Source: a bacterium (GTDB lineage Bacteria; Hydrothermota; UBA3073; JACQXS01; JAQTXJ01). From it: a stretch of DNA of 64,000 nucleotides. A program made the position numbers and the translations under genes. Shown one piece after another: positions 553 through 26,370 of the stretch; position 1 is the stretch's first letter; each line of letters starts with the position of its first letter. The notes below the pieces were generated by a model. It was not told the origin of the DNA, searched no databases, and saw only the letters and a list, made by a program, of their open reading frames with translations. The DNA is taken from NCBI GenBank assembly GCA_028716385.1, contig JAQUPX010000001.1, positions 282,775 to 346,774 of the forward strand. Direction: 5' to 3'.

Positions 553-559
553 AAGAAAT

Positions 560-1642: not shown

Positions 1643-1770
1643 TTGGCAGACCATTTTATCTGCCAAAGTCATAAAAATCTAAAATGACACTTGACAATAT
1701 GAAGCATAGATTGCATATATAAGGTATAGGATAAAAAGAGTTTTAGCATAAACAAAAAATAGGGGGATAG

Positions 1771-3651
1771 ATGATAGGTATTATTTTTCTTTTGTTAAAC
1801 ATAAACGTAGAATGGCAAACTGATTGGGTAGGCGGGTCAGGAGTTGCCGGGCCTGTTTCGGATTGGGGAAATAAATTCTGGCAATCCGACAGCGTTACAT
1901 ACAACATACAGGGGCAGGTGTCTCCAAGGGCATCAGGCACACCGAATTACACTAACTGGACAAAGCGCACGATTGATACTGATGCGAACATAGCTTATAA
2001 TGCAATATGGCCTGCCGATTTTGATAATGATGGCGATATGGATTTGGCAGGCTGGAAAAGCGTTAGCGGGCAGCTTGTTTTTTATAGAAATAACAGTAAT
2101 ACTTTTACTCAGGCAACTACTATGACCGGTCCGGTGGGTAGTTACTGGTCGTTTATGTATGGCGCTGACCTTGATAACGATACTAAAACGGATGTTGTAG
2201 TATGTGGAGGGGAGACGGGAAAAGGAGTATATTGGTATAAAAATAATGGCGGGTTTAGTTTTACTAAAAATACGATTACTACGGATAGTTGTTGCTTCTT
2301 TGTGGAAGGAGCTGACATTGATAAAGATGGTTATATTGACCTGGGGATTACAAGAGCATTTGTCGGCGGAGTAGAGATTTGGCATAATAATAAGAACGGC
2401 ACGTTTTCGCTCTGGCAAACACTGAGCGGGCTTGATTCCTGGAGGATTAAACTTGGAGATTTGAACGGCGACAGTTACCCCGATGTTGTAATAGGGGATG
2501 GGTATACCATTCTCTCTTCGGAGATTAGTTATAAAATATTTTTTAATGACGGCACGGGTCATTTTAATGTTGCCGCCACGGTTGCAAATGGCGCAAGCAC
2601 TACTACTAACGATGGCCTGTGGATTAGGGACGTGAATAACGACGGCAAAAACGATATAATTACTGCGCTTATAGATAACTCGTCCGGGCCAACCAGTGTT
2701 GCAATATACTGGTTTGAGAATGATGGCACGGGCGTAAACTATACTCAACATACCGTATATCCCGGGGGAAACATTTTTTACGGGGATGGCGGTTTCGCGG
2801 AAGATATAGATATGGACGGCAAAGCGGATGTCCCGACAGGATGGACACATCTTTCCTGGTTCAGGCAAAATAACTCCGATAGCTGGACTGAATACGTAAT
2901 TGACCAGCCTACGGATTTGTACACTCACTGGATTGTGCCGTTTAAAACAGAGTGGGGGCAATGTTTCGAGAGCGCAAAAATTAACTTGCTCGTTTCCTGG
3001 AGAGGGGCTTCTACGGGGTCATTTGTGTGGTACGAGAATAACATAGTAAGCGGTTTTGTTGCAAGCGCATCGCTTCAATCCTCTATTTTACGCTCCTCCG
3101 AATGCGATACTACGACATGGTTGCAGTTTGGTTGGAAAACTTGCTGTCCCTTTGACAACGCTATAAGTTTTCAATTCCGCAGCGGCAAGGATTACAGCAG
3201 TATAACAAGCGCTTTATGGAGCACGCCTGTCGTAGTAACTGCGGCGACTTCCATTGATTCGGTTGACCTTTCCTCGTATGTGCAGAATGGTAGCGGAGAT
3301 TCGCTTTTCCAGTATAAGGTTGGTTTTGTAGGCGCAAGCGATGCGGGCATATTGGATAGTGTGTGGGTAACCTACCATTGTGGAATTGCCGGAGTCGCTG
3401 AGAACAAGACAATCGGGAAAGAAGGACTTTCCATATATGCGAATAAAATTCTTTACTCTTTGCCAAAGGATACCGAAGTAAGGCTTGCTTTGTATGATGT
3501 GTCCGGGAGATTGGCAAAATTGCTTGATGAGGGCAAAAAGTCTCAAGGGGACTATACGGCAAACATTCCAAAACTTTCGAACGGAATCTATCTTGTGGTA
3601 TTAAAAGCAGGAGAGAAAATATTCTCCAAAAAGATTACGGTTATAAAATAG
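1771..3651 (+). CDS. FG-GAP/VCBS-like repeat protein with T9SS C-terminal tail
   Basis: 626-aa ORF; recurring DxDxDGxxDL/V motifs (DFDNDGDMDL, DIDKDGYIDL, DVNNDGKNDI, DIDMDGKADV); C-terminal sorting tail; GGGGGA purine-rich site upstream of ATG. Confidence 0.6.
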   Translation: MIGIIFLLLNINVEWQTDWVGGSGVAGPVSDWGNKFWQSDSVTYNIQGQVSPRASGTPNYTNWTKRTIDTDANIAYNAIWPADFDNDGDMDLAGWKSVSGQLVFYRNNSNTFTQATTMTGPVGSYWSFMYGADLDNDTKTDVVVCGGETGKGVYWYKNNGGFSFTKNTITTDSCCFFVEGADIDKDGYIDLGITRAFVGGVEIWHNNKNGTFSLWQTLSGLDSWRIKLGDLNGDSYPDVVIGDGYTILSSEISYKIFFNDGTGHFNVAATVANGASTTTNDGLWIRDVNNDGKNDIITALIDNSSGPTSVAIYWFENDGTGVNYTQHTVYPGGNIFYGDGGFAEDIDMDGKADVPTGWTHLSWFRQNNSDSWTEYVIDQPTDLYTHWIVPFKTEWGQCFESAKINLLVSWRGASTGSFVWYENNIVSGFVASASLQSSILRSSECDTTTWLQFGWKTCCPFDNAISFQFRSGKDYSSITSALWSTPVVVTAATSIDSVDLSSYVQNGSGDSLFQYKVGFVGASDAGILDSVWVTYHCGIAGVAENKTIGKEGLSIYANKILYSLPKDTEVRLALYDVSGRLAKLLDEGKKSQGDYTANIPKLSNGIYLVVLKAGEKIFSKKITVIK

Positions 3652-9376: not shown

Positions 9377-9760
9377 ATGGAAAAGAAGATATTAATTGTG
9401 GATGATGATTTCCATCTTATTACTCTCCTGCGGTTCAATCTGGAGAAAGCAGGTTACTCTGTTTGGTCTGCAAAAGACGGCAGCCAGGCGTTGAACATAA
9501 TGAAAAAAGACAAAATGGACCTCATAATTGCCGATATGATGATGCCGGTGATGGACGGTTTGGAATTATGTCGACGGGTAAAAAGCGAACCTTTATGGAA
9601 ATCCTGTCCCGTAATAATGCTCACTGCCAGAGTTCAGCTTTCGGACAAGGAAAAAGGAAAAGAGGCGGGAGTTGATGATTATATTACAAAACCTTTTCAG
9701 ATGAAAGAATTGCTTGCTTCGGTAAAAAACAATCTGAAACTATATTCAGATAAAAAATGA
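9377..9760 (+). CDS. single-domain response regulator (CheY-like receiver)
   Basis: 127 aa; ILIVDDD...MDLIIADMMMP..DGLEL...PVIMLTA...KEAGVDDYITKPF matches the receiver-domain pattern (acidic pocket, phospho-acceptor Asp, conserved Thr and Lys positions). Confidence 0.85.
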   Translation: MEKKILIVDDDFHLITLLRFNLEKAGYSVWSAKDGSQALNIMKKDKMDLIIADMMMPVMDGLELCRRVKSEPLWKSCPVIMLTARVQLSDKEKGKEAGVDDYITKPFQMKELLASVKNNLKLYSDKK

Positions 9761-10137
9761 ACAAACAAAGAAGAGAAATAGTAATAGGGAAGCATACTTT
9801 CTATCTTGATAAAAGCAATATATTACGCATAACCGTTGTCGGGGAACCGGGAAACGAAACCGTAACCGCAATGAAAACACTACATGAGAAACTCGATGAC
9901 ATAGCTAAAGACAAGGTGAATTTCCTTATAGACCTTAACCGGGCAGGAAAGCCCTCTCCGGAAGTAAGAAATATGGAGAAGTTAATTTACCGGCATAAGA
10001 AAGTTAGAAAAATCGCTTTCTGCGGCGCGCATCCTGTTGCAAAAGTACTTGCAAATTTTACTATATCCGTCACAAAAAAGAAAGATATGCAGTTCTTTGA
10101 CACTGAAGAAAAAGCCCTTTCCTGGCTGAAAAAATAA
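9757..10137 (+). CDS. small STAS/SpoIIAA-like protein, tandem paralog 1 of 4 (fold assignment tentative)
   Basis: 126 aa; shares with the next three ORFs IGKHTxxLxxxNIL...VxG...KVxxLxDL...KPSxExR...KKVxKIAxxGxxPVAKV...KKxxxFFxTxExALxWLK; start overlaps receiver stop (ATGA). Confidence 0.5.
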   Translation: MNKQRREIVIGKHTFYLDKSNILRITVVGEPGNETVTAMKTLHEKLDDIAKDKVNFLIDLNRAGKPSPEVRNMEKLIYRHKKVRKIAFCGAHPVAKVLANFTISVTKKKDMQFFDTEEKALSWLKK

Positions 10138-10149
10138 TAAAAAATGAAC

Positions 10150-10214
10150 AAAGAAAAAAAGATGTAAAATTTTTCAATACGAAAGAATCGGCAATCGTAT
10201 GGTTACGGGAATAA
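10150..10214 (+). pseudogene. 3'-terminal remnant of a fifth STAS-like paralog (internally deleted copy)
   Basis: 10150-10214 is near-identical to 10941-11004 (the last ~21 codons of paralog 3, ...KKDVKFFNTKESAIVWL(R/K)E*); ATGAACAAA at 10144 mimics the paralog-1 start but is out of frame, giving M-N-K-E-K-K-M-stop. Confidence 0.55.
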
Positions 10215-10226
10215 CGCGTAAAGGAC

Positions 10227-10613
10227 GTGAAAATGAATAAAGAAGAAAGAGAAATATTAATAGGAAAGCATACCGTCTGCCTCGGTGAAGACAATATATT
10301 ATATATAACTATTGTCGGAGACATTGACGAAGAAAAAATAGAGATATTGTTTGAAACAATTAGTAAACTTCTGGAGATGGGAAAAGGAAAAGTAAGCGTA
10401 TTAGTAAATATTAGCAAAGCCAAGAAGCCTTCTGTAAAAACAAGAAACCATATCGCACAATTCCATACGAATAAAAAGGTCGGGCAGATTGCCATTTTTG
10501 GACTAACCCCGGTTGCAAAAGTAATGTCGGCTTTCGCCGTAGGAATTACTAAAAAAAGAAATATAAAATTCTTTGATACAAAAGAATCGGCTCTTGCCTG
10601 GCTAAACGAATAA
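10227..10613 (+). CDS. small STAS/SpoIIAA-like protein, tandem paralog 2 of 4
   Basis: 128 aa; same conserved motif set; AAGGA upstream. Confidence 0.5.
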   Translation: MKMNKEEREILIGKHTVCLGEDNILYITIVGDIDEEKIEILFETISKLLEMGKGKVSVLVNISKAKKPSVKTRNHIAQFHTNKKVGQIAIFGLTPVAKVMSAFAVGITKKRNIKFFDTKESALAWLNE

Positions 10614-10617
10614 TAAA

Positions 10618-11004
10618 ATGGAAAAAGGGAAAAAAGAGTTTTTTATAGGGGAGAACAGATTATACCTCGGGGAAGATAAAATACTTTATGCGGATTTTTC
10701 AGGGGAACTTACCGTGGATATAATAAATTCGTTATACGATTTTTTTAATCTCAATAAAACCAAAATGATGAACGAAGGAAAAGTAAAGATACTTATACAC
10801 CTTAAGAATCCAAAGAAATCTTCTCCTGAAGCCAGGAAATTAACATATACGTTGAGTAAAGATAAAAATATTGGCAAAGTCGCCCTCTTGGGAATTAACC
10901 CGGTTACAAAAGTAATCGCCTCTTTCTTTATGGGAAATTCAAGAAAAAAAGATGTAAAATTTTTCAATACAAAAGAATCGGCAATCGTATGGTTAAAGGA
11001 ATAA
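10618..11004 (+). CDS. small STAS/SpoIIAA-like protein, tandem paralog 3 of 4
   Basis: 128 aa; same conserved motif set. Confidence 0.5.
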   Translation: MEKGKKEFFIGENRLYLGEDKILYADFSGELTVDIINSLYDFFNLNKTKMMNEGKVKILIHLKNPKKSSPEARKLTYTLSKDKNIGKVALLGINPVTKVIASFFMGNSRKKDVKFFNTKESAIVWLKE

Positions 11005-11017
11005 TGCATACAGAGAT

Positions 11018-11410
11018 ATGAAAATGAAAAAACAAGAAAAAGAAATATGGGCAGGGCAAAATAGATTATGTTTCGGAGAAGACAAAATACTTTACGCAAC
11101 TCTTGTCGGGGACCTTTCTGCGGAAATAGTGAATACGTTATATGTATTTTTCGAACAAAATAAAAATGAAAATATGGTTGACGGGAAAGTAAGATTTTTT
11201 GTAGACCTTACTAATTCAGGGAAACCTTCTATGGAAGCAAGAAAATTGACTTATGCGCTGAGTGAAAGTAAAGACATCGGGAAATTTGCCATAATCGGAA
11301 TGAATCCGGTTGCAAGGGTAATAGCGGCTTTTTTTATGGGAAATTCAAGAAAGAAAGGTATGAAATTTTTCAACACAAGGGAGGAAGCGCTTGAATGGCT
11401 AAAGAAATAA
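11018..11410 (+). CDS. small STAS/SpoIIAA-like protein, tandem paralog 4 of 4
   Basis: 130 aa; same conserved motif set; 3' end overlaps the kinase start. Confidence 0.5.
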   Translation: MKMKKQEKEIWAGQNRLCFGEDKILYATLVGDLSAEIVNTLYVFFEQNKNENMVDGKVRFFVDLTNSGKPSMEARKLTYALSESKDIGKFAIIGMNPVARVIAAFFMGNSRKKGMKFFNTREEALEWLKK

Positions 11411-12747
11411 TACCGTCAGACAAATTCAAAGAAATTACCTATAACAAGGAAAACCCTTTGCGCGATGAAACAATTATTCGTCTTAATAAGATGATTGAAA
11501 TTGTTATGAACGTGGCAAAAGGAATTTACTCCGAACAGGTTCAACTCTCGGATAAAAACGATGAGATTGATGCGCTTGGGATAGGTATAAATATGATGAT
11601 TGACGATATTAAAAAAAACGTTGAAAGAATCAAAAAAGAAAAAATTAACCTCGATAAACAAGAAAAAAGAAGAACTATAGAACTTAAAGAAGAACGGAAT
11701 AAATTCCACGCTACAGCCGAAAGCATATCCGACGGTATACTCGTGATAGACTTCAAGGGGAATATTCTAATCGTTAATTCGGCATTTGAAAGGTTATTTG
11801 GCATCAAAAAAGAACAGGTAACGGGACGACACGTGCTTGATTGTCTGGAGGATGTAAAAATTTTAGACCTTATAACCCGAAAATTAACAACAGGGCATGA
11901 ATATTATACGGAAGAACTTATAATCACGGATAGGGTAACCAACACAGAAAAAATCTTAAACGGACGAATATCTTCCGTCTTCAACCAGGCCGGAAAAAAA
12001 TTGGGAGCCGTAATAGTTCTGAGGAATATCACAAAAGAAAAAGAAGCCGAGAGAATAAAAAATGAATTTGTATCAAACGTGTCTCACGAAATCAGGACGC
12101 CCCTGTCTTCCATAAAAGGTTTCGTTGATACTCTTCTTATGGTTAAAGTTTCCGAGTCCGAACGTAAAAAGTTTTTAAACATAATCAAACAGGAATCAAA
12201 CAGGTTGAACCAGCTTATTACTGATTTGCTTGACCTTTCCCGTATTGAATCCGGAAGGGTAGAGCTTAAATTTGAACCCGTTGACGTTTTTCAAAAGTTG
12301 GAAGCCGTAAAATCGGAAATTTTAGGTAAAATCTCACGGAAGAAACTTTCTTTTGAAATAAAAGTGCCGGCTTCTTTGCCGCTGATAAAAGCCGATAAAA
12401 ATGCTTTGTTCCAGATTCTTATTAATCTTGTTAGTAATGCAATTAAGTTTACGGAAAAAGAAGGAAAAATTTGCGTGAAAGCGGAACTGTGCAACAAGAA
12501 AGAATGTGTCAAATTTTCTGTCCGGGATACGGGGTATGGAATAGAAAAACAATACCTGACAAAAATATGGGAAAAATTCTACAGGATTGAAACTTCTTCG
12601 CATAAAATCCCCGGAACAGGACTCGGGTTACCTATTGTTAAAGATTTGGTAGAAAAGCATAACGGGAAAATATGGGTAAACAGTAAACCCGGAAAAGGCA
12701 GTGTTTTTTACTTTACCATACCGGTTTTTACCGAAAGGAAAAAATGA
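11395..12747 (+). CDS. cytoplasmic sensor histidine kinase (PAS + HisKA + HATPase_c)
   Basis: 450 aa; no transmembrane segment seen; PAS-like region (ATAESISDGILVIDFKGNILIVNSAFERLFG); H-box NEFVSNVSHEIRTPLSSIKGF; ATP-lid motifs (LINLVSNAIKFT, VRDTGYGI, GTGLGLPIV). Confidence 0.85.
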   Translation: MAKEIIPSDKFKEITYNKENPLRDETIIRLNKMIEIVMNVAKGIYSEQVQLSDKNDEIDALGIGINMMIDDIKKNVERIKKEKINLDKQEKRRTIELKEERNKFHATAESISDGILVIDFKGNILIVNSAFERLFGIKKEQVTGRHVLDCLEDVKILDLITRKLTTGHEYYTEELIITDRVTNTEKILNGRISSVFNQAGKKLGAVIVLRNITKEKEAERIKNEFVSNVSHEIRTPLSSIKGFVDTLLMVKVSESERKKFLNIIKQESNRLNQLITDLLDLSRIESGRVELKFEPVDVFQKLEAVKSEILGKISRKKLSFEIKVPASLPLIKADKNALFQILINLVSNAIKFTEKEGKICVKAELCNKKECVKFSVRDTGYGIEKQYLTKIWEKFYRIETSSHKIPGTGLGLPIVKDLVEKHNGKIWVNSKPGKGSVFYFTIPVFTERKK

Positions 12748-13130
12748 GCGATATAGATAAATTACAAAAAATACTTATAATAGACGATGAATACAACTTA
12801 TGCACGCTTCTGCGGTTTCATTTGCAGATGGAAGGATTCAAAGTGTTTACTGCGCATAATGCGGCAGATGGCGTAGAAGCGGCAAAAACGAAACTTCCCG
12901 ACCTTATCCTGCTTGACGTAAAAATGCCGGATACGGACGGCATACAAGTATGTAAAATCTTAAGAAGAAACCGTAAAACCAAGCATATCCCTATATTTAT
13001 GATTACGGGATTATCCCAGATGGGCATTATGGAAGATGCGTTCAAGGCAGGCGCGAACGATTATATCTCCAAACCTTTTGACGTGACTACAATCGTAGAG
13101 CTGGTTACCGAAAAATTTTCCAAACTCTAA
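12744..13130 (+). CDS. single-domain response regulator (CheY-like receiver)
   Basis: 128 aa; ILIIDDE...PDLILLDVKMPDTDG...IPIFMITG...AGANDYISKPF; start overlaps kinase stop. Confidence 0.85.
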   Translation: MSDIDKLQKILIIDDEYNLCTLLRFHLQMEGFKVFTAHNAADGVEAAKTKLPDLILLDVKMPDTDGIQVCKILRRNRKTKHIPIFMITGLSQMGIMEDAFKAGANDYISKPFDVTTIVELVTEKFSKL

Positions 13131-13544
13131 TCCGCTTCCCTGTCCTATTTTCCTAATAACTAATACCCTATTAACGGATTCTCCCGCACGGGGTGTGCCA
13201 ATTTTATCTTTTCTCTGTGCACTCTCTGTCTTCGGAGTTTACCCCGCATTTTGCGGGGTAGTTTTAATCTGTATTCTGTTTTTTGTTGTTTACACTATAA
13301 ATTTCTTTTCTCTGTGCTCTCTGTGGTTAGACTTTCGTGGCGATGTTCTTTTTTTCCTTGCAAAAACGAAACTATAGTATATTCTGAAAACTAACAATTA
13401 TAAGATACAAATAGAAAATAGTAACTGGTAGTCCCGCTAGCGGGATAGCAATCTCTAATGACTAACATCAAAGAGCTTGCTATAATTTAAGGAGTAATTG
13501 GTTGTAACTGAAAAAAAGAATAACCGTAACTAATAGGAGGAAAG

Positions 13545-15725
13545 ATGCGAAATGTTTTCAGGAGTGTTTTTGTCGGGATAATGCTTATCCCGTTTATTTT
13601 ATCCGGCGAACAAAAAATCGCCGCCCGGTCAGTAAGAATTCAGCAGGATAATGTTTTTGAAACAAAAGGCGGAACAAAAACGGGCGTTCCGTCAGAGATT
13701 AACTACCAGGGATGGCTTGGCGCTGCAGATACATCGGCGGTGACAGGAAAACTTAATATGGTATTTAAAATTTATACCGCATCAACAGGCGGGACATTAT
13801 TATGGACAGAGCAAGACAGCGTGCAGGTGAGCAAAGGGATATTCAACGTATTACTTGGCAGCGTAACGCCTATACCGGACAGTATTTTCAACAACACGTC
13901 TCTTTATCTTGAGACACAAGTTGACGCGGACGTTTTAGAGCCGAGGAAAAAACTTACAAGCGTCGGTTATGCAATAAAATCAAAACATTCGGACAATGCA
14001 ACTCGAGCGGACACCGCGACTTACGCAATCAACGCCAACGTTCAGTACGTGGATTCGGCGAGAGTAGCGGCTACGGCTTATGCCTTGACGGATACGACTG
14101 CTTTCAACGACAAATATGTGAGTGTATCCGGCGACACAATGACGGGGCCGTTTGTTGCTTCGGCGAATTCGGCCGATAATTTGGTTTCTTCAATCCAGGC
14201 AGGCGTAGGCAAAGCAGGGTATTTCGAGATAGCCAATATTACAAATGCAAATGACGTGGTATATAATTACACAACCGGCACGGGAAACGCCGGTTTATTC
14301 CGGATAAACAATGCCGTAAATTCGAACAATGCGGTATACGGGATGACGAATGGCGCCGGGCATGCGGTATATGGTTATACGAACGGCACGGGGAATGCGG
14401 TACGCGCGACTACAATCGGAGCCGGGGATGCGCTGTATAGTTATACGACCGGTACCGGGGGCGCGGGATATTTTAATATAAACAATGCTTCAAATGCGAA
14501 CAATGTAGTATATGGGACTACGAATGGCGACGGGGATGCAATATCCGGATATACGACCGGAGCCGGGCATGCGGTATACGGGCAGACAAATTCCAGCGGG
14601 GATGCTGTATACGGTTATACGAACGGCACGGGCAGGGCAGCGTTATTCCAGATAGGGAATGTTTCAAATGCAAGCGATGCTTTGTATACTTATACAAACG
14701 GCACGGGAAAAGCGGCGTATTTTGAGATAGGAAATGTCGCGAGTTCAAGTCCTGTGGTGCATGCGTATACAAACGGCACGGGAAACTGCGGGTATTTTTC
14801 GATAGCCAATGCTTCGAATTCAAACAACGCAGTCTATGCTTCTACGAGTGGAAACGGGCATGCGATACAGGGGTATATGGCAGGAACGGGCACCGCGGGG
14901 TATTTTTCGGTAAACAATGCCGCAAGCGCAGGCGAGGCAATAGCCGCAACTACAATCGGAACGGGCAGGGCGGGGTATTTTTCGATAAGCAATGCCACGA
15001 ATCCAAGTTCCGTAATATATGCGACTACAAATGGAAACGGAGTAGCAGGGCATTTCCAGGTAAGCAATGTTTCAAGTTCAGGCCCTGCGCTGTATGGGGT
15101 AACGAATGGCAGCGGGGAAGCCGTGTACGGGTCAGGGAGCGGAAGCGGGATTGCGGTACGCGGGAGCACAAACGGAACGGGTAGGGCAGGATTTTTCCAG
15201 ATAACAAATGTTTCAAATTCAAGCGATGTGTTGTATGGAACTACGGACGGAAGCGGGAACGTGGTGCATGGTTATACAAGCGGAACGGGCAGGGCGGGGT
15301 ATTTCCAGATAAACAATGTTTCAAATTCGTCAGATGTAATTTATTTAACGTGCAACGGGACGGGGAATTTCATAAATACGTCTAAAAGCGGTTGTTACCT
15401 TGACAAAGACGGTGTATGGCATACTCCAAGCAGTCGTGAACTCAAAGAAAACATAGAAGAACTCCGTGCGGATGAAGCGATGAGTGCGGTTGAAAAGTTG
15501 AATCCGGTTAAATTCAATTACAGGAAAGGTGGAGGAGAAAGCTATGTAGGGTTTATCGCTGAGGACGTGCCCGACCTGGTAGCAATGAAAGACAGGAAAT
15601 CTTTATCGCCGATGGACATAGTAGCGGCTTTGACGAAGGTAGTGCAGGAACAGCAGAAAAGCATACAGGCGCAGCAAAAAGAGATAAACGCATTAAGGGA
15701 AAAAGTAGACCGGCTAACAAAATAA
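13545..15725 (+). CDS. secreted fibre-like repeat protein with C-terminal intramolecular-chaperone (peptidase S74 / endosialidase-chaperone-like) domain
   Basis: 726 aa; AGGAGG upstream; signal-like N-terminus; about 20 copies of a ~21-aa unit (YTNGTGxAGYFxIxNxSNxxxVVY); C-terminal SSRELKENIEEL...LNPVKFNYRK...GFIAEDVPDLVA...coiled-coil tail fits the tail-fibre chaperone pattern SDxRLKxNI...PVxF...GFIAQEV..PxLV. Confidence 0.7.
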   Translation: MRNVFRSVFVGIMLIPFILSGEQKIAARSVRIQQDNVFETKGGTKTGVPSEINYQGWLGAADTSAVTGKLNMVFKIYTASTGGTLLWTEQDSVQVSKGIFNVLLGSVTPIPDSIFNNTSLYLETQVDADVLEPRKKLTSVGYAIKSKHSDNATRADTATYAINANVQYVDSARVAATAYALTDTTAFNDKYVSVSGDTMTGPFVASANSADNLVSSIQAGVGKAGYFEIANITNANDVVYNYTTGTGNAGLFRINNAVNSNNAVYGMTNGAGHAVYGYTNGTGNAVRATTIGAGDALYSYTTGTGGAGYFNINNASNANNVVYGTTNGDGDAISGYTTGAGHAVYGQTNSSGDAVYGYTNGTGRAALFQIGNVSNASDALYTYTNGTGKAAYFEIGNVASSSPVVHAYTNGTGNCGYFSIANASNSNNAVYASTSGNGHAIQGYMAGTGTAGYFSVNNAASAGEAIAATTIGTGRAGYFSISNATNPSSVIYATTNGNGVAGHFQVSNVSSSGPALYGVTNGSGEAVYGSGSGSGIAVRGSTNGTGRAGFFQITNVSNSSDVLYGTTDGSGNVVHGYTSGTGRAGYFQINNVSNSSDVIYLTCNGTGNFINTSKSGCYLDKDGVWHTPSSRELKENIEELRADEAMSAVEKLNPVKFNYRKGGGESYVGFIAEDVPDLVAMKDRKSLSPMDIVAALTKVVQEQQKSIQAQQKEINALREKVDRLTK

Positions 15726-17108: not shown

Positions 17109-18596
17109 TTACTTCACAACTACTATTTTCGATGTGCAGTTTTGTCCGCAAGCGGACAGTCTTGCGAGGTATACGCCGGAGGTAAACCCTGTCGGCGTCC
17201 ATTCTAATGTATATTCACCGGGAACCTTATTTGTGTTTAAAAGAGTTTTAACCAATTCGCCTGCAGTGTTATATATCCTTAAACATACATCGGAATTTTT
17301 TGGTATGGAGTATCTGAAAAGTAATTTGTGGTTAGAGAGTTGTGCATATAATCTAGGCGTTTCCCGAGAATAAACTTTTTCCTGAACACCGGCTATACAT
17401 CCTCCATCCAGGACTTTCAAAATTCCTGTTCCTCCGATTACCACTTCCAATTGCCCGTCCCCGTCTACGTCTCCGATTGAAGGGTCGCTGTCTCCGGCAG
17501 AACTATTGCCAAATTCCCATAGAAGAGTTCCGTCATTATTGAGTCCGCGTATTATTGTATCGTTAGAGGCAAATACTATTTCGGGTTTATCGTCACTGTC
17601 CAAATCGCCAATCGCAGGGCATGACCATATGTGACTTCCCGTTGCATAACTCCAGAGCACTGAGCCATCTTCACCGTTGAGAGCGTAAAAGTTGAAATCA
17701 TCGGAGCCAAATACTATTTCAGGTTTAGTGTCGTTATCCAAATCTGCAATCGCAGGGGAAGAGCGTACGGAACCTCCTGTCGTCGTGTAGCTCCAAAGTA
17801 AAGAACCGTCTTCTCCGTTGAGAGCGTAGAAATCGAATGAGCCGACAACTATCTCGAGTTTAGTATCGTTATCCAAATCTGCAATCGCCGGGGAAGCGCT
17901 AACTCCTATTGGATAACTCCAGATAAGCGAACCATCTTCACCATTAAGAGCATATAATTTATTGTCGCCAAGAACTACCTCAAGTTTAGTATCGTTATCC
18001 AAATCCGCAATTGCAGGCGAAGACCATATGTAACTTCCCGTTGCATAACTCCAGAGTACTGAGCCGTCTTCACCGTTGAAAGCGTAGAACGTATAATCCA
18101 GGGAGCCAACAGCTATTTCAGGTTTACTATCGTTATCCAAATCCGCAATCGCGGGGGAAGACATTACCCGATTTCCTGTCTTATAACTCCAGAGCAGGGA
18201 GCCGTCTTCAGTATTGAGGGCATAAAGTTGGCTGTCATAGGAGCAGACAACCACCTCGAGTTTAGTGTCCCCGTCTAAATCCCCAAGTGCAGGGCAAGAG
18301 CATATTTTACCCGACGTTGTATAGCTCCATATTACTGAACCGTTTTCTCCATTGAAATTATATATTTTATTGTCTATGTCATTACCGGAAATTATTTCAG
18401 GGATGTTATCATTATTTATGTCTACAATTGCAAATTTAGCGAATCCCTCGTTAGGGGTTTGCCATTTGATTCTCATAGAATCGGAAGTTAAGCATCCTTT
18501 GAGTTCAGGTTGAAAACCAGTATTTTGCAGGTCATGATGGAATTTCAGCCATTCTCCGGGCAAGGTCAAAAGGCAAATAAGAAATATATTCAACAT
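17109..18596 (-). CDS. propeller-repeat (PQQ-like / FG-GAP-like) protein with T9SS C-terminal tail; inverted paralog of 29316-30824
   Basis: 495 aa; repeating IADLDNDTKxEVVxGSxDxxLYALNGEDGSxLWSYxTG units; C-terminal sorting tail; N- and C-terminal regions about 80-90 percent identical at nucleotide level to 29316-30824 on the other strand. Confidence 0.65.
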   Translation of the reverse strand: MLNIFLICLLTLPGEWLKFHHDLQNTGFQPELKGCLTSDSMRIKWQTPNEGFAKFAIVDINNDNIPEIISGNDIDNKIYNFNGENGSVIWSYTTSGKICSCPALGDLDGDTKLEVVVCSYDSQLYALNTEDGSLLWSYKTGNRVMSSPAIADLDNDSKPEIAVGSLDYTFYAFNGEDGSVLWSYATGSYIWSSPAIADLDNDTKLEVVLGDNKLYALNGEDGSLIWSYPIGVSASPAIADLDNDTKLEIVVGSFDFYALNGEDGSLLWSYTTTGGSVRSSPAIADLDNDTKPEIVFGSDDFNFYALNGEDGSVLWSYATGSHIWSCPAIGDLDSDDKPEIVFASNDTIIRGLNNDGTLLWEFGNSSAGDSDPSIGDVDGDGQLEVVIGGTGILKVLDGGCIAGVQEKVYSRETPRLYAQLSNHKLLFRYSIPKNSDVCLRIYNTAGELVKTLLNTNKVPGEYTLEWTPTGFTSGVYLARLSACGQNCTSKIVVVK

Positions 18597-22314: not shown

Positions 22315-24177
22315 TTAGGTCTTCTCACTCAGTTGATTAAGCATTTTTTCCTGTGAAATTTTTACGGCCGCCATTTTTTCCCTTAATGCTGAATGTAGAT
22401 GGCTCCATGTTTCAAAATCACACTCTTCTCTAAGTTCACATTCATTACATCTAAAACATCTTGGGAGTTTTAGCCCGCTAAAAAAGTTGTATTCAATATT
22501 TTTAATAATTTTTTCTACTAATTGTTGCGAATAGAAAATCTCAAGTTTTTCTTTTGCCATTTTAGTATTATAATTCTTAAGCTTTTTTAAAACCAAATAA
22601 TCTCTTATCGCTGAAAAATAAGTAATTTCTTCCTCGTTGTTTTTTATATTTCCGGACGATAGTATATTAATAAATTTTTGCAATTCATATATCGCTTTTT
22701 TATATGAACCGGTAACTAAATGCAAAAACGAAAGTAGTAAAACAGGATTTATTCTGCTCCATTGAGAATCCCATTTACGCAAAGGGAGCCATGTAAAAGG
22801 GAGGATATTATTTATTTTATAGGGAGTCTTATATACGCTGTTGTTAACCAGTTCTTTGATTTCTTTGAATTCATCAATTTTTCTTTTATCTAAATCTATA
22901 AATAAATTATTTTTTTCTATTTTTTCTTTATGTAATTCTAACTCCTTCCATGAAGCTCTTCTGGAGTTAGTCCCCGGTACAATAACTTGATAACTTGGAA
23001 ATCCCAAAAAAGATACATCTCTTATAAATATAGGTCCTTTTGTTGCTCTATGTAATATATTACACATACGTTGATAGTGTAGTTTATTGTTAAATTTGTT
23101 ATTTGTGTTTGCCGACAAAGTACTATTATAAGATGGTTTTCCAAAGAAAAAACTGTTTGGATAAGCACCGTCATTCGTTTTTAGCAAGTTAAAAAAGTTG
23201 TTAGACCATCCGCCATTATTAATTTTTTGTTCGAATAATAAATCTTTTAAGTTTACTTTCGTTCCGCTTTTGTAGTCCAAAATATGTCTACCTTGAAATG
23301 TTTCTGTAATGGCGCGGGAAATAGCCTCATCTATATTAGGATGCGACCCAAAATTTACATGGTAGCTGCCTTTCCTTTTATCGTGCGCTATGACAGCAAC
23401 AACAGGCAACGCCATATTTAGAGAACAATCTTTAATTGAAATATGGAAATTACTATTTTTTTCTATTTCCTCAATCATAATCTTTAAGTGTGGGGAACGA
23501 GATATACAACTTTTGTTTAATTCCGGGGGAGTTAATTGCTTGTGGTAAATAACATCCATACAGTGCCTTTCACTTACTTCGCTCATCCCTTGCACCAATG
23601 CTTCGTAAATATTATTCCCGGCGCACATCCCCGTAGAACCATAATGATACCTTATCATCTCCAATGGCAAAAAAACAATTTTTCCGCTAATCACATCCGC
23701 AAATGGAATGCATAGCAATTTTCCTTCGTATGAAAAAAAATCCAGCCATTTTTCGGCATCCCCTTTCTGTCTGTCACACGGAGCAAAATTTCTTAACAAA
23801 TTCTTGTCGACAGACTTAACAAATTGGCGCGGTGTTAAAAATATTTCATCCGGGGAATAAATAAAATCAGAAATCTTATGCAGTGTTTTATAGTTTAATA
23901 TAAAACTATTATGATTTGCGGTGTTGAATTGATTTTGTATTCTTTCCATTAGTTCCGCATAAGCGCTGGCAAGCGCCGCTTCTTTTGACATCCCCTTCCC
24001 GTTTGAACCAATAAAACTATCATTAAAACTAATGCGTACCGAATATAAAGAATCTCCATTCTTATACCACCTGTCTTCATTAATCAAAACTCCTATTTTG
24101 TAAAAAATGTTTCTTATACGAGTTATAGTTTCTATGGGTTTTACATCTTTATATAAAACTGTCTGAACCTTTTCCAT
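22315..24177 (-). CDS. ycaO: YcaO-domain protein, full-length E. coli YcaO-type
   Basis: 620 aa; SVRISFNDSFIGSNGKGMSKEAALASAYAELMERIQNQF matches the YcaO ATP-binding core (GKG...AxxSAxxExxER); further blocks YHYGSTGMCAGNNIYEALVQGMSEVSERH and FGSHPNIDEAISRAITETFQGR line up with E. coli YcaO along its length. Confidence 0.85.
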   Translation of the reverse strand: MEKVQTVLYKDVKPIETITRIRNIFYKIGVLINEDRWYKNGDSLYSVRISFNDSFIGSNGKGMSKEAALASAYAELMERIQNQFNTANHNSFILNYKTLHKISDFIYSPDEIFLTPRQFVKSVDKNLLRNFAPCDRQKGDAEKWLDFFSYEGKLLCIPFADVISGKIVFLPLEMIRYHYGSTGMCAGNNIYEALVQGMSEVSERHCMDVIYHKQLTPPELNKSCISRSPHLKIMIEEIEKNSNFHISIKDCSLNMALPVVAVIAHDKRKGSYHVNFGSHPNIDEAISRAITETFQGRHILDYKSGTKVNLKDLLFEQKINNGGWSNNFFNLLKTNDGAYPNSFFFGKPSYNSTLSANTNNKFNNKLHYQRMCNILHRATKGPIFIRDVSFLGFPSYQVIVPGTNSRRASWKELELHKEKIEKNNLFIDLDKRKIDEFKEIKELVNNSVYKTPYKINNILPFTWLPLRKWDSQWSRINPVLLLSFLHLVTGSYKKAIYELQKFINILSSGNIKNNEEEITYFSAIRDYLVLKKLKNYNTKMAKEKLEIFYSQQLVEKIIKNIEYNFFSGLKLPRCFRCNECELREECDFETWSHLHSALREKMAAVKISQEKMLNQLSEKT

Positions 24178-24224
24178 AGTTTTAACTAATTCCCCTCATC
24201 TCCCTATCCGCCTTATTCTTTTCT

Positions 24225-24651
24225 TTTAATCTCTCCAATCTATTACCAACCCTTGATTTATCTAGGGATGGTTATCCAGCTCTGCTGGAAAATCTCCAAT
24301 CCAAAATCCAAAATCTATTACTTGCCTGCCCCGTACATTTATTGCACAGGGGCGCTCACTTGGTAGCCGCAAGCTTTAGCTTGCGCCTGTCCACCTTTTG
24401 TTTTGGCGGAAAGCGGGGAAGAATCTCGTTTTTCCCCTTCGCCCTTTGCTCTTCTCGCTCCTCCGTATCTCCCCAATTCGCATTCCAAAATCTTTTTTTT
24501 CAGTATCTTTTAATTCCCCAATTCCTTCTTTTAATCCGTTCAATCCCCAATCCCTGCCTACCGGTCAGGCAGGCAAAATCTAAAATCTATTACCAGCCCT
24601 TGAGTTATCTAGGGATGGTTATCCAGCTCCGCTGTGGCTGGAAAATCCGCC
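24225..24651. repeat. repeat-rich intergenic region containing remnants of T9SS-linker coding sequence
   Basis: Two copies of CTATTACCxxCCCTTGAxTTATCTAGGGATGGTTATCCAGCTCxGCTG (about 24235-24290 and 24585-24640); AATCCAAAATCCAAAATC and CCCTGCCTACCGGTCAGGCAGGCAAAATC blocks match coding sequence at 33585-33625; GGTAGCCGCAAGCTTTAGCTTGCGC hairpin at about 24360. Confidence 0.45.
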
Positions 24652-26370
24652 CTATCCCTCGTTTTCTATTGTTTGAAATAAATGCTGGTATAAGATATTC
24701 GTTTGTATCAATTCTCTGTGCGTCCCCGATGTAACAAAATTCCCCTTATCAAGAACTATCGTCCTGTCCGCTAAAAGCATCGTTTCTTTTGAATGACTGA
24801 TAACTATCGTTATTCTGTCGTCTTTGCCGTCTATTAAAACATTATGTATCGCTTTAATGTTGTTCGCATCAAGTCCTGCCGTGGCCTCATCCAACAGCAA
24901 TACGTCCGGTTTTTTTAGAAAAGCCCGCGCTATCGCCAGCCTCTGTTTTTGCCCGCCACTCAGATTTCCACCGCTTTCATTAAGTTTATGATTCAACCCG
25001 TCTTCTAATTGATTAATGAATTCCATTGCCTGGGCCCTTTTTAGAACAGTATCAATTTCTTCATCGGTTGAATTTAACTTGCCCATAGAAATGTTCTCTT
25101 TTATCGTTGCTAAAAATAAAAAAGGCGCCTGTTGCACTATTGCTATTTTATTCCGATACGAATCCAGGGATATTGAATTGATGTTAATGCCGTTTGCGCT
25201 TATCTCACCTTTCTCCGGCATATATACCCGCTGCAATAACTTAAATATCGTCGTTTTCCCCGCCCCGCTTTCCCCTACTAATGCTATGATTTCACCTTTC
25301 TTTGCGCTGAAAGAAACATTCTTAAGACCAAAATCATCCTTTTCGGAATATGAAAAACAAACTTCTTTAACGTTGAGCGTTTCTATGCTTTCAATATCAA
25401 TGCCTTCTTTCTTCTCCTGCTCTATAGAGAATAATTCCTGCACTCTTTTTATACAACTTTTCCCCGTTTGAAGAGATATGTTAAGATTCGTTAACCCGGA
25501 CGTTGAACTGAATACTTGCACCATAAGCATATTAAACGCAAAGAAACTGCCAAAAGTAAGCTCCCCTTTAATTATCAGGTATCCCCCCAGCCATATTAAT
25601 ACGACCTTCCCCAGGGTCGAACTTAGTTGCCCCAGCACAGATGGCTTGCAGGAATATACGAACCGTTCAATTGCAATATTAAACAACTCTGTTAATTTTT
25701 TAGCATACCTGCTTATAATTTCTTTTTCTGCTCCTAAATATTTTATTTCCAGACGCCCGGAAATGATTTCGTTCAAATAAAAAGTATTATTTGCTTTCTT
25801 CTCCAGCATTTTTATCGTTCTCTGGTTCATCCCGCGATTAAATAGCTTTAAAGAAATGGCAAAAATCGGGAGTATACTGAAAAACACTAAAGATAACGTA
25901 AGATTAAACTTCGCAATGATTATCACGCTAACTACAAGCGTAATCGCATCTTTTGTTAAATTTAACATATCGTCTATAAAAAACGTATTAACTCCTTCCA
26001 AATCTCCCTCTATTCGTCCCGTAAGATATCCCGACCCTTTTTGAGATAATTCTTTCCAGTTGGAATTAATAATTCGTCCCAATAATATTGACTTTAAATA
26101 GTTCCCGAAACCATACTTCAGGCAATTTGCCATATAAGTATCAAAAATGCTTATCCCTATAAGGCAAACTTGAGCAGCCAATATCGCAATAGCCCATTTT
26201 GTTAAAAGAAGATAGTCTTTAGAAGGCAAAACAATATCAAGGATATGTTTTGTCAGGAGCGGAATTATAACGACTAAAGCGACTTTCAATATGTTCCCAA
26301 CAACAATAAGTAGTGATGATGAAAAAGCAATCCCAAAAAAATATTTACCTGCTAATTTTCTTACTTTCAT
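24652..26370 (-). CDS. ABC exporter, fused permease-ATPase (no N-terminal C39 peptidase domain)
   Basis: 572 aa; N-terminal half with multiple hydrophobic helices; Walker A GESGAGKTT, signature LSGGQKQRLAIARAF, Walker B VLLLDEATAGLD; start overlaps the rSAM stop by 4 nt. Confidence 0.85.
   Translation of the reverse strand: MKVRKLAGKYFFGIAFSSSLLIVVGNILKVALVVIIPLLTKHILDIVLPSKDYLLLTKWAIAILAAQVCLIGISIFDTYMANCLKYGFGNYLKSILLGRIINSNWKELSQKGSGYLTGRIEGDLEGVNTFFIDDMLNLTKDAITLVVSVIIIAKFNLTLSLVFFSILPIFAISLKLFNRGMNQRTIKMLEKKANNTFYLNEIISGRLEIKYLGAEKEIISRYAKKLTELFNIAIERFVYSCKPSVLGQLSSTLGKVVLIWLGGYLIIKGELTFGSFFAFNMLMVQVFSSTSGLTNLNISLQTGKSCIKRVQELFSIEQEKKEGIDIESIETLNVKEVCFSYSEKDDFGLKNVSFSAKKGEIIALVGESGAGKTTIFKLLQRVYMPEKGEISANGININSISLDSYRNKIAIVQQAPFLFLATIKENISMGKLNSTDEEIDTVLKRAQAMEFINQLEDGLNHKLNESGGNLSGGQKQRLAIARAFLKKPDVLLLDEATAGLDANNIKAIHNVLIDGKDDRITIVISHSKETMLLADRTIVLDKGNFVTSGTHRELIQTNILYQHLFQTIENEG

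What the first reader, a model, noticed from the sequence alone, without database searches (positions are those of the whole stretch)
13545..15725. Cellular surface fibre protein with a phage-tail-fibre-type self-cleaving chaperone domain
About 20 copies of a ~21-aa Gly/Asn/Thr-rich unit (YTNGTGxAGYFxIxN) precede a C-terminal ~120-aa domain beginning SSRELKENIEEL...PVKFNY...GFIAEDVPDLV and ending in a heptad-rich tail. That is the pattern of the intramolecular chaperone that trimerises and then excises itself from phage tail spikes and endosialidases. No capsid, terminase, integrase or other phage genes are nearby, so this looks like a host-encoded adhesin or fibre that borrowed the module.
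Basis: partly seen in the sequence, partly recalled or inferred. Interest (0 to 1): 0.6.

Follow-up and report, generated by a model that had tools for sequence, protein, structure and literature searches.

The report
Cell-surface fibre with self-cleaving chaperone domain
This chromosomal gene encodes an exported, repeat-built fibre protein ending in the self-excising folding domain known from phage tail fibres; this kind of bacterial fibre was described in the predator Bdellovibrio in 2024, so it is a real but fairly ordinary new example.

Summary
ORF 13545..15725 (+) encodes a 726-aa protein with four parts:
- a Sec-type signal peptide;
- a confidently modelled ~120-aa beta-sandwich N-domain;
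- a stalk of 22 Gly/Asn/Thr-rich units, eleven of 11 aa and eleven of 25 aa, not a uniform ~21 aa;
- a 98-aa C-terminal Peptidase_S74 intramolecular chaperone (Pfam 35.6 bits against a cut-off of 22; profile E 6e-17 to a solved phage tail-fibre chaperone).

The chaperone keeps the Ser629/Lys634 dyad and ends in a clean heptad coiled coil.

The whole 64-kb window and three relatives' loci are chromosomal and free of phage genes. Only the C-terminal domain matches phage protein families. The N-domain and the stalk match none.

The N-domain defines a very large family with no Pfam match (27,225 cluster representatives). It is joined to many alternative stalks and tips, including C1q, beta-helix, collagen and UspA1 repeats.

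This architecture matches the "MAT" fibres of Bdellovibrio (Caulton et al. 2024), which include experimentally self-cleaving S74 members. Direct homology of the N-domains could not be tested.

I rate it a new member of a known kind, with modest interest.

The parts
13458..13486 (+). Promoter-like site (ATGACT-17-TATAAT, with TG extension) about 60 nt upstream of the start codon
   Evidence: This is a consensus match only; the number of such sites in the region does not exceed the shuffles.
13535..13540 (+). Ribosome-binding site AGGAGG, 4 nt before the ATG
   Evidence: read directly from the sequence.
13545..13610 (+). Sec-type signal peptide (about residues 1-22: MRNVFRSVFVGIMLIPFILSGE); no lipobox Cys
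   Evidence: Arg2 and Arg6 are followed by a hydrophobic core with mean Kyte-Doolittle 2.39 over residues 7-20. AlphaFold2 models helix 3-19. Homologues P0001-P0005 have equivalent N-termini. No dedicated signal-peptide predictor was available.
13677..14039 (+). Conserved N-terminal beta-sandwich module (residues ~45-165; INYQGWLG...FNVLLGS...PRKKLTSVGYAIKS); proposed cell-proximal anchor
14040..14186 (+). Low-confidence linker between the N-module and the stalk (residues 166-214)
   Evidence: pLDDT 38-52.
14187..15374 (+). Stalk: 22 Gly/Asn/Thr-rich units (eleven of 25 aa and eleven of 11 aa), residues 215-610
   Evidence: The same repeat occurs in 216 database proteins, with various termini. 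It matches no PHROG family.
15375..15428 (+). Connector NTSKSGCYLDKDGVWHTP (residues 611-628); predicted C-terminus of the mature fibre after cleavage
   Evidence: Inferred from the position of the scissile bond in homologues.
15429..15722 (+). Peptidase_S74 intramolecular chaperone domain (residues 629-726); predicted scissile bond Pro628-Ser629
15429..15446 (+). Catalytic dyad motif S629-S-R-E-L-K634 (Ser codon 15429-15431, Lys codon 15444-15446)
   Evidence: In alignment A1 the Lys is invariant and the Ser is present in at least 90% of sequences. The Ser aligns to residue 1 of chaperone chain 3GUD and to the SDxxxK motif of other solved chaperones. Coordinates were verified.
15609..15719 (+). 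C-terminal amphipathic helix with about 4.5 heptads; predicted trimeric coiled coil
   Evidence: It corresponds to the central trimeric coiled coil of the T5 pb1 chaperone (PMC4690869).
15840..15861 (+). G+C-rich hairpin downstream of the stop codon (terminator-like, weak T tract)

Best explanation
The gene encodes a chromosomally encoded, Sec-exported, homotrimeric cell-surface fibre of the mosaic type described as 'MAT' fibres in Bdellovibrio.

Proposed mechanism:
1. The signal peptide takes the chain across the inner membrane (inferred from sequence).
2. The C-terminal 98-aa S74 domain trimerises through its heptad helix and templates folding of the upstream Gly/Asn/Thr-rich stalk into an intertwined trimer (inferred from homology to solved chaperones).
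3. Once the last stalk rungs are correctly assembled, Ser629, activated by Lys634, cuts the Pro628-Ser629 bond. The chaperone leaves and exposes the distal end of the stalk (inferred from the conserved dyad and the published mechanism).
4. The mature fibre (about residues 23-628, three chains) is held at the cell surface by the conserved N-terminal beta-sandwich through an unknown partner. The 22-unit stalk projects outward as the binding element (inferred by analogy; the ligand is unknown).

Shown here: the domain architecture, S74 family membership, conservation of the dyad, the non-phage genomic context, and the mosaic N-module family.

Not shown: trimer formation, cleavage, surface location and adhesion.
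For: S74 membership:
- Pfam PF13884 at 35.6 bits against a cut-off of 22.
- Family profile A1 against the PDB: 6F45 E 6e-17, 8JOV 1e-13, MYRF 7DC3 2e-11, T5 pb1 8HQZ 2e-10, 3GUD 8e-3.
- 32 PHROG families, nearly all tail or tail-fibre proteins, aligned at their C-termini.
- The dyad S629/K634 is conserved.
- The C-terminal helix has an unbroken heptad register.

Cellular origin:
- Signal peptide.
- No phage, CIS or integrase genes and no tRNA in 64 kb.
- Relatives P0001, P0013 and P0005 lie among housekeeping genes.
- The N-module and stalk are absent from PHROGs, 50,697 phage genomes, IMG/VR and BFVD.

Mosaic fibre family:
- The N-module has 27,225 representatives.
- It is fused to S74, C1q, beta-helix, collagen, UspA1 repeats, TIG, phage tail collar and other domains.
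- Paralogues P0013 (S74 tip) and P0046 (non-S74 tip) lie two genes apart.

Published precedent:
- Bdellovibrio MAT fibres have a signal peptide, a conserved ~130-aa beta-rich N-domain with no PDB homologue, a trimeric stalk, and S74 or other tips.
- Bd3182 self-cleaves, and the S782A mutant does not (PMC10769870).
- In T5 pb1 the mechanism is a Ser/Lys(+5) dyad with cleavage immediately N-terminal to the Ser (PMC4690869).
Against: - The stalk is modelled poorly as a monomer (pLDDT 35-70), so its fold is unknown and the trimeric beta-helix is unverified.
- The residue after the catalytic Ser is Ser, not the canonical Asp (SSRELK against SDxxxK).
- No Arg is evident upstream to act as the neighbouring-chain folding sensor seen in T5 pb1.
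- The window protein lacks the capping-loop motif shared by Bdellovibrio MATs and MYRF. That motif is present in 67 of 189 N-module relatives.
- Homology of the N-module to the Bdellovibrio MAT N-domain could not be tested.
- No route across the outer membrane is evident. The protein has no T9SS C-terminal sorting domain, although 15 neighbouring ORFs do.
- No conserved partner gene was seen in the four loci examined.
Confidence: 0.72

Rival explanations
1. It is a phage-derived tail fibre: part of a prophage, a degraded prophage remnant, or the fibre of a tailocin or extracellular contractile injection system.
For: The C-terminal domain is the one typical of phage tail fibres. NCBI calls the nearest homologue 'tail fiber domain-containing protein'. 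The gene's GC3 (0.478) lies at the upper edge of the window's range, which has mean 0.367 +/- 0.06.
Against: - There are no capsid, terminase, portal, sheath, tube, baseplate or integrase genes and no tRNA in 64 kb.
- Three relatives sit among housekeeping genes.
- The protein has a Sec-type signal peptide.
- Five-sixths of the protein (N-module plus stalk) matches no PHROG family, no phage genome and no IMG/VR contig.
Confidence: 0.05
2. The S74 domain is retained only as a permanent trimerisation cap and is not cleaved off, so the mature fibre keeps its coiled-coil C-terminus.
For: The motif is SSRELK rather than SDxxxK. The close homologue P0002 has Cys at the nucleophile position. No upstream sensor Arg is evident. 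This sub-family has a shortened domain, and the Pfam match covers only residues 629-677.
Against: The Lys is invariant and the Ser is present in at least 90% of 15 aligned family members. A Cys could still act as nucleophile. In every S74 domain tested experimentally the Ser/Lys pair supports cleavage (PMC4690869, PMC10769870).
Confidence: 0.12
3. It is a surface or secreted structural protein with a role other than adhesion, for example an S-layer-like spacer, an ice- or mineral-binding solenoid, or a released fibre. Alternatively it is an unconventional type IX secretion cargo or a trimeric autotransporter.
For: The stalk is a regular Thr/Asn/Gly-rich solenoid-like repeat. A relative carries an ice-binding-type beta-roll repeat (P0029). 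The window is dense in T9SS cargo. Some N-module proteins carry UspA1 stalk repeats.
Against: The protein has no Por_Secre_tail domain and no YadA-type anchor. The tips found on N-module relatives (C1q, collagen, phage tail collar, TIG, beta-helix) are typical binding or enzymatic heads. The only characterised analogues act in cell-cell recognition (PMC10769870).
Confidence: 0.1

Closest known systems
Bdellovibrio bacteriovorus MAT (mosaic adhesive trimeric) fibres, S74 subgroup, e.g. Bd3182 (Caulton et al. 2024, PMC10769870)
   Same: - The protein is chromosomally encoded.
- A signal peptide is followed directly by a conserved beta-rich N-domain of ~120-130 aa that has no PDB homologue.
- A long repetitive stalk follows.
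- The C-terminus is an S74 chaperone with a Ser-x4-Lys dyad.
- The same N-domain is combined with alternative, non-S74 tips in paralogues.
- The paper already lists examples outside Bdellovibrio, in the FCB group, PVC, Omnitrophica and Myxococcales.
   Different: - Sequence homology of the N-domains was not tested, because no Bdellovibrio sequence could be obtained.
- This protein is shorter (726 aa against about 1,000-1,900).
- Its stalk is built of 11/25-aa Gly/Asn/Thr units.
- It lacks the capping-loop motif.
- The motif is SSRELK, not SDxxxK.
- After cleavage no separate tip domain is left.
- The source organism is an uncultured lineage rich in T9SS cargo (relatives include candidate division WOR-3), and it is not a known predator.
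Phage tail-fibre and tailspike intramolecular chaperones (Peptidase_S74 / ICA domain): K1F endosialidase, T5 pb1, S16 gp37, a phage neck appendage protein (3GUD)
   Same: The C-terminal 98 aa are homologous. The catalytic Ser and Lys(+5), the C-terminal trimeric coiled-coil helix and the position at the extreme C-terminus of a fibre are all shared.
   Different: Everything upstream differs. This protein has a signal peptide, an N-module and a stalk that are absent from phage families. It lies in no virion gene context. The domain itself is a shortened variant lacking the insertion and the RGV-Y-W motif seen in canonical members.
MYRF (myelin regulatory factor) ICA domain, eukaryotic
   Same: It is a non-viral protein that uses the same self-cleaving trimerisation domain (7DC3, E 2e-11).
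   Different: MYRF is a membrane-tethered transcription factor in which cleavage releases a DNA-binding N-terminal part. No DNA-binding or transmembrane region is present here.
Trimeric autotransporter adhesins (YadA/UspA1 type) and T9SS-sorted adhesins
   Same: They are repetitive, probably trimeric surface fibres. Some N-module relatives carry UspA1-type stalk repeats. The genomic neighbourhood is full of T9SS cargo.
   Different: This protein has no C-terminal beta-barrel anchor and no Por_Secre_tail sorting domain. The predicted polarity is the opposite of a trimeric autotransporter: the conserved, presumably cell-proximal end is N-terminal.

Membership tests
Peptidase_S74 / intramolecular chaperone auto-processing domain (PF13884) | Significant match to the family profile, above the curated threshold | tested here: met
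   E 1.2e-8, 35.6 bits against a cut-off of 22, residues 629-677. The sub-family profile hits solved chaperones at E 6e-17 to 8e-3. 32 PHROG tail or tail-fibre families match.
Peptidase_S74 / intramolecular chaperone auto-processing domain (PF13884) | Catalytic Ser with Lys five residues downstream (SDxxxK) | tested here: met
   The motif is S629-S-R-E-L-K634. The Lys is invariant and the Ser is at least 90% conserved in 15 relatives. The +1 Asp is replaced by Ser in this sub-family.
Peptidase_S74 / intramolecular chaperone auto-processing domain (PF13884) | Extreme C-terminal position, with a trimeric coiled-coil helix | tested here: met
   The domain is the last 98 aa. Helix 689-725 has a 3-4 a/d register. 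The trimeric state itself was not modelled.
Peptidase_S74 / intramolecular chaperone auto-processing domain (PF13884) | Upstream intertwined trimeric beta-helix whose correct folding completes the active site (neighbour-chain Arg sensor) | tested here: inconclusive
   Only monomer prediction was available, and the stalk pLDDT is 35-70. No Arg occurs in residues 600-628, though Lys614 and Lys621 are present (read).
Peptidase_S74 / intramolecular chaperone auto-processing domain (PF13884) | Autoproteolytic release of the domain | not testable with these tools
   This needs expression of the wild type against the S629A and K634A mutants.
MAT fibres (Caulton et al. 2024) | Signal peptide followed immediately by a conserved ~130-aa beta-rich domain with no PDB homologue | tested here: met
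MAT fibres (Caulton et al. 2024) | N-domain homologous to that of the Bdellovibrio MAT proteins | not testable with these tools
   The afdb50 library was unavailable. Two primer-derived exact patterns for bd3182 found nothing in genome contigs. A query of concatenated Bd3182 peptides found nothing.
MAT fibres (Caulton et al. 2024) | One N-domain combined with S74 or alternative tip domains in paralogues (mosaicism) | tested here: met
   N-module relatives carry S74, C1q, Beta_helix/NosD, Collagen, UspA1_rep, TIG, Collar and other domains. P0013 (S74 tip) and P0046 (non-S74 tip) are two genes apart. There is no paralogue within this window, and the rest of the genome was not seen.
MAT fibres (Caulton et al. 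2024) | Capping-loop motif on the stalk (of the type NVGIGTTxPxxKL, shared with MYRF) | tested here: not met
   It is absent from the window protein, P0001 and P0002. It is present in P0004, P0005, P0013 and in 67 of 189 N-module proteins.
MAT fibres (Caulton et al. 2024) | Trimeric fibre displayed on the cell surface | not testable with these tools
   This needs multimer modelling, electron microscopy or localisation experiments.
Phage, prophage or CIS tail fibre | Encoded among virion or tail-module genes | tested here: not met
   None is present in 64 kb or in three relatives' loci.
Phage, prophage or CIS tail fibre | N-terminal part related to phage fibre or baseplate-attachment domains | tested here: not met
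   Residues 1-225 match 0 PHROG families and residues 226-610 match none. There is no tblastn hit in 50,697 phage genomes, no relative in IMG/VR, and no BFVD match at E<=1e-3.
T9SS cargo protein | C-terminal Por_Secre_tail sorting domain | tested here: not met
   The fibre has no such hit, whereas 15 other ORFs in the window hit it at E<1e-3.
Trimeric autotransporter adhesin | C-terminal YadA-type membrane anchor | tested here: not met
   No anchor family is found among the Pfam hits at E<=1. The C-terminus is the S74 domain.

The most novel reading that the evidence does not exclude
The N-terminal beta-sandwich may be the universal cell-side 'socket' of a very large class of bacterial surface fibres. 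The class has at least 27,000 50%-identity clusters and matched no family or solved structure in the libraries searched here. Stalks and tips would be shuffled freely within it, and the phage-type S74 chaperone would be just one interchangeable cap. If the module is homologous to the Bdellovibrio MAT N-domain, MAT fibres are not a predator speciality. They would be a general organelle of many phyla (FCB group, Planctomycetes, WOR-3-like lineages), exported and anchored by an unknown route that bypasses the T9SS even in T9SS-rich cells. The 11/25-aa Gly/Asn/Thr stalk would then be a new kind of chaperone-dependent trimeric solenoid.
Probability: 0.4. Interest if true: 0.5.

Novelty: new member of a known kind. 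Interest (0 to 1): 0.3.

Why it matters
It adds a clear example, from an uncultured T9SS-rich lineage, of a cellular fibre that uses the phage-type self-cleaving chaperone.

The analysis also shows that the fibre's N-terminal module belongs to a very large mosaic family. No family library searched here names it, it has no solved structure, and its partner is unknown. That points to a widespread but barely studied way for bacteria to build and diversify surface fibres. Two questions about MAT-type fibres remain open and are easy to state:
- What holds them on the cell?
- How do they cross the outer membrane?

For this single gene the practical value is modest. It would be a compact model (726 aa, with no separate tip domain) for testing chaperone-dependent folding of a simple repeat stalk.

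Tried and rejected
1. Single-sequence PDB searches with the full protein and with the C-terminal 131 aa found nothing relevant. A 15-sequence profile was needed.
2. Attempts to obtain a Bdellovibrio MAT sequence for a direct N-domain comparison all failed:
   - the afdb50 fold library was not available;
   - a query of concatenated published Bd3182 peptides found no candidate;
   - length-matched candidates for the paper's Table S3 proteins carried no accessions;
   - the CASP16 paper concerned a different Bdellovibrio protein.
4. A full-length AlphaFold2 monomer model gave no usable stalk structure, so the trimeric beta-helix idea remains untested.
5. The window protein is not itself in the protein collection, so the source organism was not identified. 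Relatives come from unclassified MAGs and candidate division WOR-3.
6. Rejected readings:
   - prophage or CIS fibre, for lack of context and because the N-module and stalk are absent from viral data;
   - T9SS cargo, for lack of the C-terminal sorting domain;
   - trimeric autotransporter, for lack of an anchor;
   - defence system, with no PADLOC hit;
   - recent horizontal transfer, because GC3 is high but inside the window's range.
7. No conserved neighbouring gene that could be an anchor or export partner was seen in the four loci examined.
Full report
**Observation**

The ORF lies exactly where stated, at 13545..15725 on the + strand. It is 726 aa with an ATG start and a TAA stop, and AGGAGG sits 4 nt upstream of the start.

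The repeat array is real, and the quoted motif is correct, but the unit length is not. Residues 215-610 contain 22 Gly-x-Gly cores. They are organised as eleven 11-aa units (consensus YGxTNGxGxAV) and eleven 25-aa units. Each 25-aa unit is the same 11 aa followed by a 14-aa extension of the type GYFxIxNxSNxxxx. Mean pairwise identity is 49% for the 25-mers and 50% for the 11-mers. Composition-preserving shuffles of the region, cut in the same register, give 10.1 +/- 0.8%. Tandem Repeats Finder sees 75-nt and 174-nt periods at DNA level, and 174 nt corresponds to a 25+11+11+11-aa super-unit.

The C-terminal domain starts at Ser629 and is 98 aa long. Its last helix (689-725) has an unbroken 3-4 hydrophobic register (V693, L696, V700, Q703, I707, Q710, I714, L717, V721, L724). 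The 'heptad-rich tail' is therefore also confirmed.

**The C-terminal domain**

- Pfam PF13884 (Peptidase_S74, 'chaperone of endosialidase') matches residues 629-677 at E 1.2e-8. The score is 35.6 bits against a gathering score of 22.
- Single-sequence searches of the PDB found nothing.
- A profile built from 15 relatives' C-termini (A1) hits solved intramolecular chaperones:
  - phage S16 long tail fibre gp37 (6F45, E 6e-17);
  - a putative tail fibre (8JOV, 1e-13);
  - the MYRF ICA domain (7DC3, 2e-11);
  - T5 L-shaped fibre pb1 (8HQZ, 2e-10);
  - a neck appendage protein chaperone (3GUD, 8e-3).
- Ser629 aligns with the first residue of the 3GUD chaperone chain and with the conserved Ser of the other chains. 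Lys634 aligns with their Lys.
- In A1 the Lys is invariant and the Ser is present in at least 90% of sequences. One close homologue, P0002, has Cys there.

The published mechanism for T5 pb1 is as follows (PMC4690869). Cleavage occurs at the Thr1263-Ser1264 bond. The Ser is activated by Lys1269. The active site is completed by an Arg from a neighbouring chain of the correctly folded trimer. The chaperone is a trimeric coiled coil flanked by an alpha/beta domain, and its removal unmasks the binding site. By homology the predicted cut here is Pro628|Ser629. This sub-family differs from the canon in having Ser rather than Asp after the nucleophile (SSRELK) and a shortened domain.

**Context**

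All ORFs of at least 150 aa in the window were scanned against Pfam.
- The region contains 15 ORFs that hit the type IX secretion C-terminal sorting domain at E<1e-3.
- It also contains FG-GAP/PQQ beta-propeller proteins and a YcaO / ABC transporter / radical-SAM-SPASM cluster.
- The other genes found are methyltransferases, a Schlafen-type ATPase and two-component signalling genes.
- There is no capsid, terminase, portal, tail, baseplate, sheath or integrase gene, and no tRNA.

Immediately upstream lie a PAS histidine kinase and a response regulator, followed by a terminator-like hairpin. A promoter-like site precedes the fibre gene, which therefore looks monocistronic. Downstream, on the opposite strand, is a 207-aa lipoprotein-like ORF.

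The closest homologues are also chromosomal:
- P0001 lies among Iso_dh, ROK kinase, PdxA, transketolase and SurA genes.
- P0013 lies among SecA, a tRNA synthetase, NAD kinase and SurA genes.
- P0005 lies among UvrD, a Ser/Thr kinase and polysaccharide-synthesis genes.

**Which parts are phage-like**

The protein was split into three pieces and scanned against PHROGs.

| Piece | PHROG result |
|---|---|
| N-terminal 225 aa | 0 families |
| 385-aa stalk | none significant |
| C-terminal 116 aa | 32 families, almost all tail or tail-fibre proteins, aligned at their C-termini |

tblastn against 50,697 phage genomes gives no match for the N-module. For the C-terminal domain it gives matches to Bacillus phage tail proteins, one of them annotated 'intramolecular chaperone-containing tail fiber protein'. 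A scan of IMG/VR found no relative of the N-module. Neither the PDB nor the BFVD viral structure library holds a specific structural neighbour of the N-domain model.

The protein also begins with a Sec-type signal peptide: Arg2 and Arg6, then a 14-residue hydrophobic core with mean Kyte-Doolittle 2.39. All close homologues have an equivalent N-terminus. Phage fibres assemble in the cytoplasm, so this points to a cellular, exported protein.

**The family**

The best database homologue is only 56% identical. It is P0001, named by NCBI 'MAG: tail fiber domain-containing protein [bacterium]'. The window protein itself is not on record.

Reading the homologues shows three modules that recombine.
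- The N-module (INYQGWLG...FNVLLGS...PRKKLxSVGYAxKS) occurs with this stalk and S74 in P0001, P0002, P0004 and P0005.
- It occurs with other repeats and S74 in P0013 and P0029.
- It occurs with a C1q head in P0049 and with a right-handed beta-helix in P0114.

An exhaustive phmmer search with residues 1-200 finds 27,225 50%-identity cluster representatives at E<=1e-3, and 7,643 at <=1e-10. The module is almost always near the N-terminus.

A Pfam census of 68 of these proteins shows S74, UspA1 repeats, TIG, ice-binding-type beta-rolls and NosD/beta-helix. It also shows collagen, phage tail collar, Peptidase_M74 and other domains.

In one genome (GCA_030592575.1), P0013 (S74 tip) and P0046 (same N-module, non-S74 tip) lie two genes apart.

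AlphaFold2 models the N-module as a beta-sandwich with pLDDT above 90. The stalk is poorly modelled as a monomer.

**Comparison with what is known**

Caulton et al. 2024 (PMC10769870) described 21 'mosaic adhesive trimeric' (MAT) fibres in Bdellovibrio bacteriovorus.
[quoted passage not shown] It has no PDB structural homologue and is presumed to bind a surface element.
- All have a trimeric stalk.
- 13 end in an S74 domain with an SDxxxK motif, and 8 end in other tips (TNF-like, C-type lectin, novel sandwiches).
- Bd3182 self-cleaves at S782, and the S782A mutant does not.
- Supplementary Table S3 lists further MAT proteins in the FCB group, PVC, Omnitrophica, Myxococcales and other groups, several with 'S74-like' tips.

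The window protein has the same overall architecture, and its family shows the same mosaicism. The capping-loop motif shared by Bdellovibrio MATs and MYRF occurs in 67 of 189 N-module proteins fetched here. It does not occur in the window protein or its two closest homologues.

I could not test whether the two N-domains are homologous. The afdb50 library was unavailable. Primer-derived DNA patterns and a peptide-derived query failed to retrieve any Bdellovibrio MAT sequence.

**Mechanism and confidence**

The most likely reading, with confidence about 0.7, has four steps:
1. Sec export.
2. C-terminal trimerisation and templated folding of the stalk by the S74 domain.
3. Self-cleavage at Pro628|Ser629 once the trimer is correct.
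4. Display of a ~606-residue-per-chain fibre, held by the N-terminal sandwich, whose distal end is the repeat stalk itself.

S74 membership and the cellular, non-phage origin are shown. Trimerisation, cleavage, surface location and adhesion are inferred. The route across the outer membrane is unknown: the fibre lacks the T9SS sorting domain that its neighbours carry.

**Verdict**

It is not new in kind. Cellular S74-capped fibres have been described, including experimentally, and NCBI already names the closest homologue as containing a tail-fibre domain. The most interesting by-product is the size and mosaic nature of the N-module family and its absence from every family library searched here. 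I rate the finding a new member of a known kind, with interest 0.3.

Noticed in passing
window 9377-13130: A signalling cluster lies directly upstream of the fibre gene. It comprises a response regulator (9377-9760), four tandem paralogous ~126-130-aa SpoIIAA-like/DUF7793 (STAS-type) genes (9757-11410), a PAS histidine kinase (11395-12747) and a second response regulator (12744-13130). It is not conserved next to the fibre gene's relatives.
   Followed up: partly
window 22315-27731: A YcaO cyclodehydratase (22315-24177), an ABC exporter (24652-26370) and a radical-SAM/SPASM enzyme (26367-27731) lie in a row on the - strand. This is a RiPP-like biosynthetic cluster, and no precursor peptide was looked for.
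   Followed up: no
window 40-3651, 17109-18596 and 31698-63972: The density of type IX secretion cargo is unusual. 15 ORFs hit the Por_Secre_tail sorting domain at E<1e-3, some of them below Pfam's gathering score. They include a 2,117-aa FG-GAP/beta-propeller giant (55289-61642), RCC1-repeat, BNR and beta-helix proteins.
   Followed up: partly
window 41872-43299 (-): A Schlafen AlbA_2 + HATPase_c_4 + HTH protein sits among the surface-protein genes. It gives PADLOC hits to models of prokaryotic Argonaute (pAgo) defence systems (Aga_SIR2-PNTD E 1.9e-16, pAgo 4.7e-11).
   Followed up: no
P0002 (closest full-length homologue), residue 575: The catalytic Ser of the S74 dyad is replaced by Cys (GCSREYK against PSSRELK). 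This may be a thiol nucleophile variant or an inactive cap.
   Followed up: no
Homologue list (e.g. P0020, P0026): Many proteins share the 11/25-aa stalk repeat but carry Pfam PF26696, which is not in the local Pfam copy. None of these also has the N-module, so the two sets do not overlap. PF26696 may mark an alternative terminal module for the same stalk.
   Followed up: partly
window 13545-15722: The fibre gene has higher GC3 (0.478) than 19 other genes of the window (0.367 +/- 0.06, range 0.264-0.493). It also prefers G-ending Gly, Thr and Ala codons. The pattern holds in all three parts of the gene.
   Followed up: partly
L002 10001-14339 (GCA_030592575.1): Two N-module fibre paralogues, P0013 (S74 tip) and P0046 (other tip), flank a ClpP/NfeD-like serine protease gene (11961-12773).
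   Followed up: no
window 14304-14626: There is a 174-nt DNA tandem repeat (1.9 copies, 76% matches) inside the stalk. It corresponds to a duplicated 58-aa super-unit (25+11+11+11 aa), which suggests the stalk grows by recent block duplication.
   Followed up: partly
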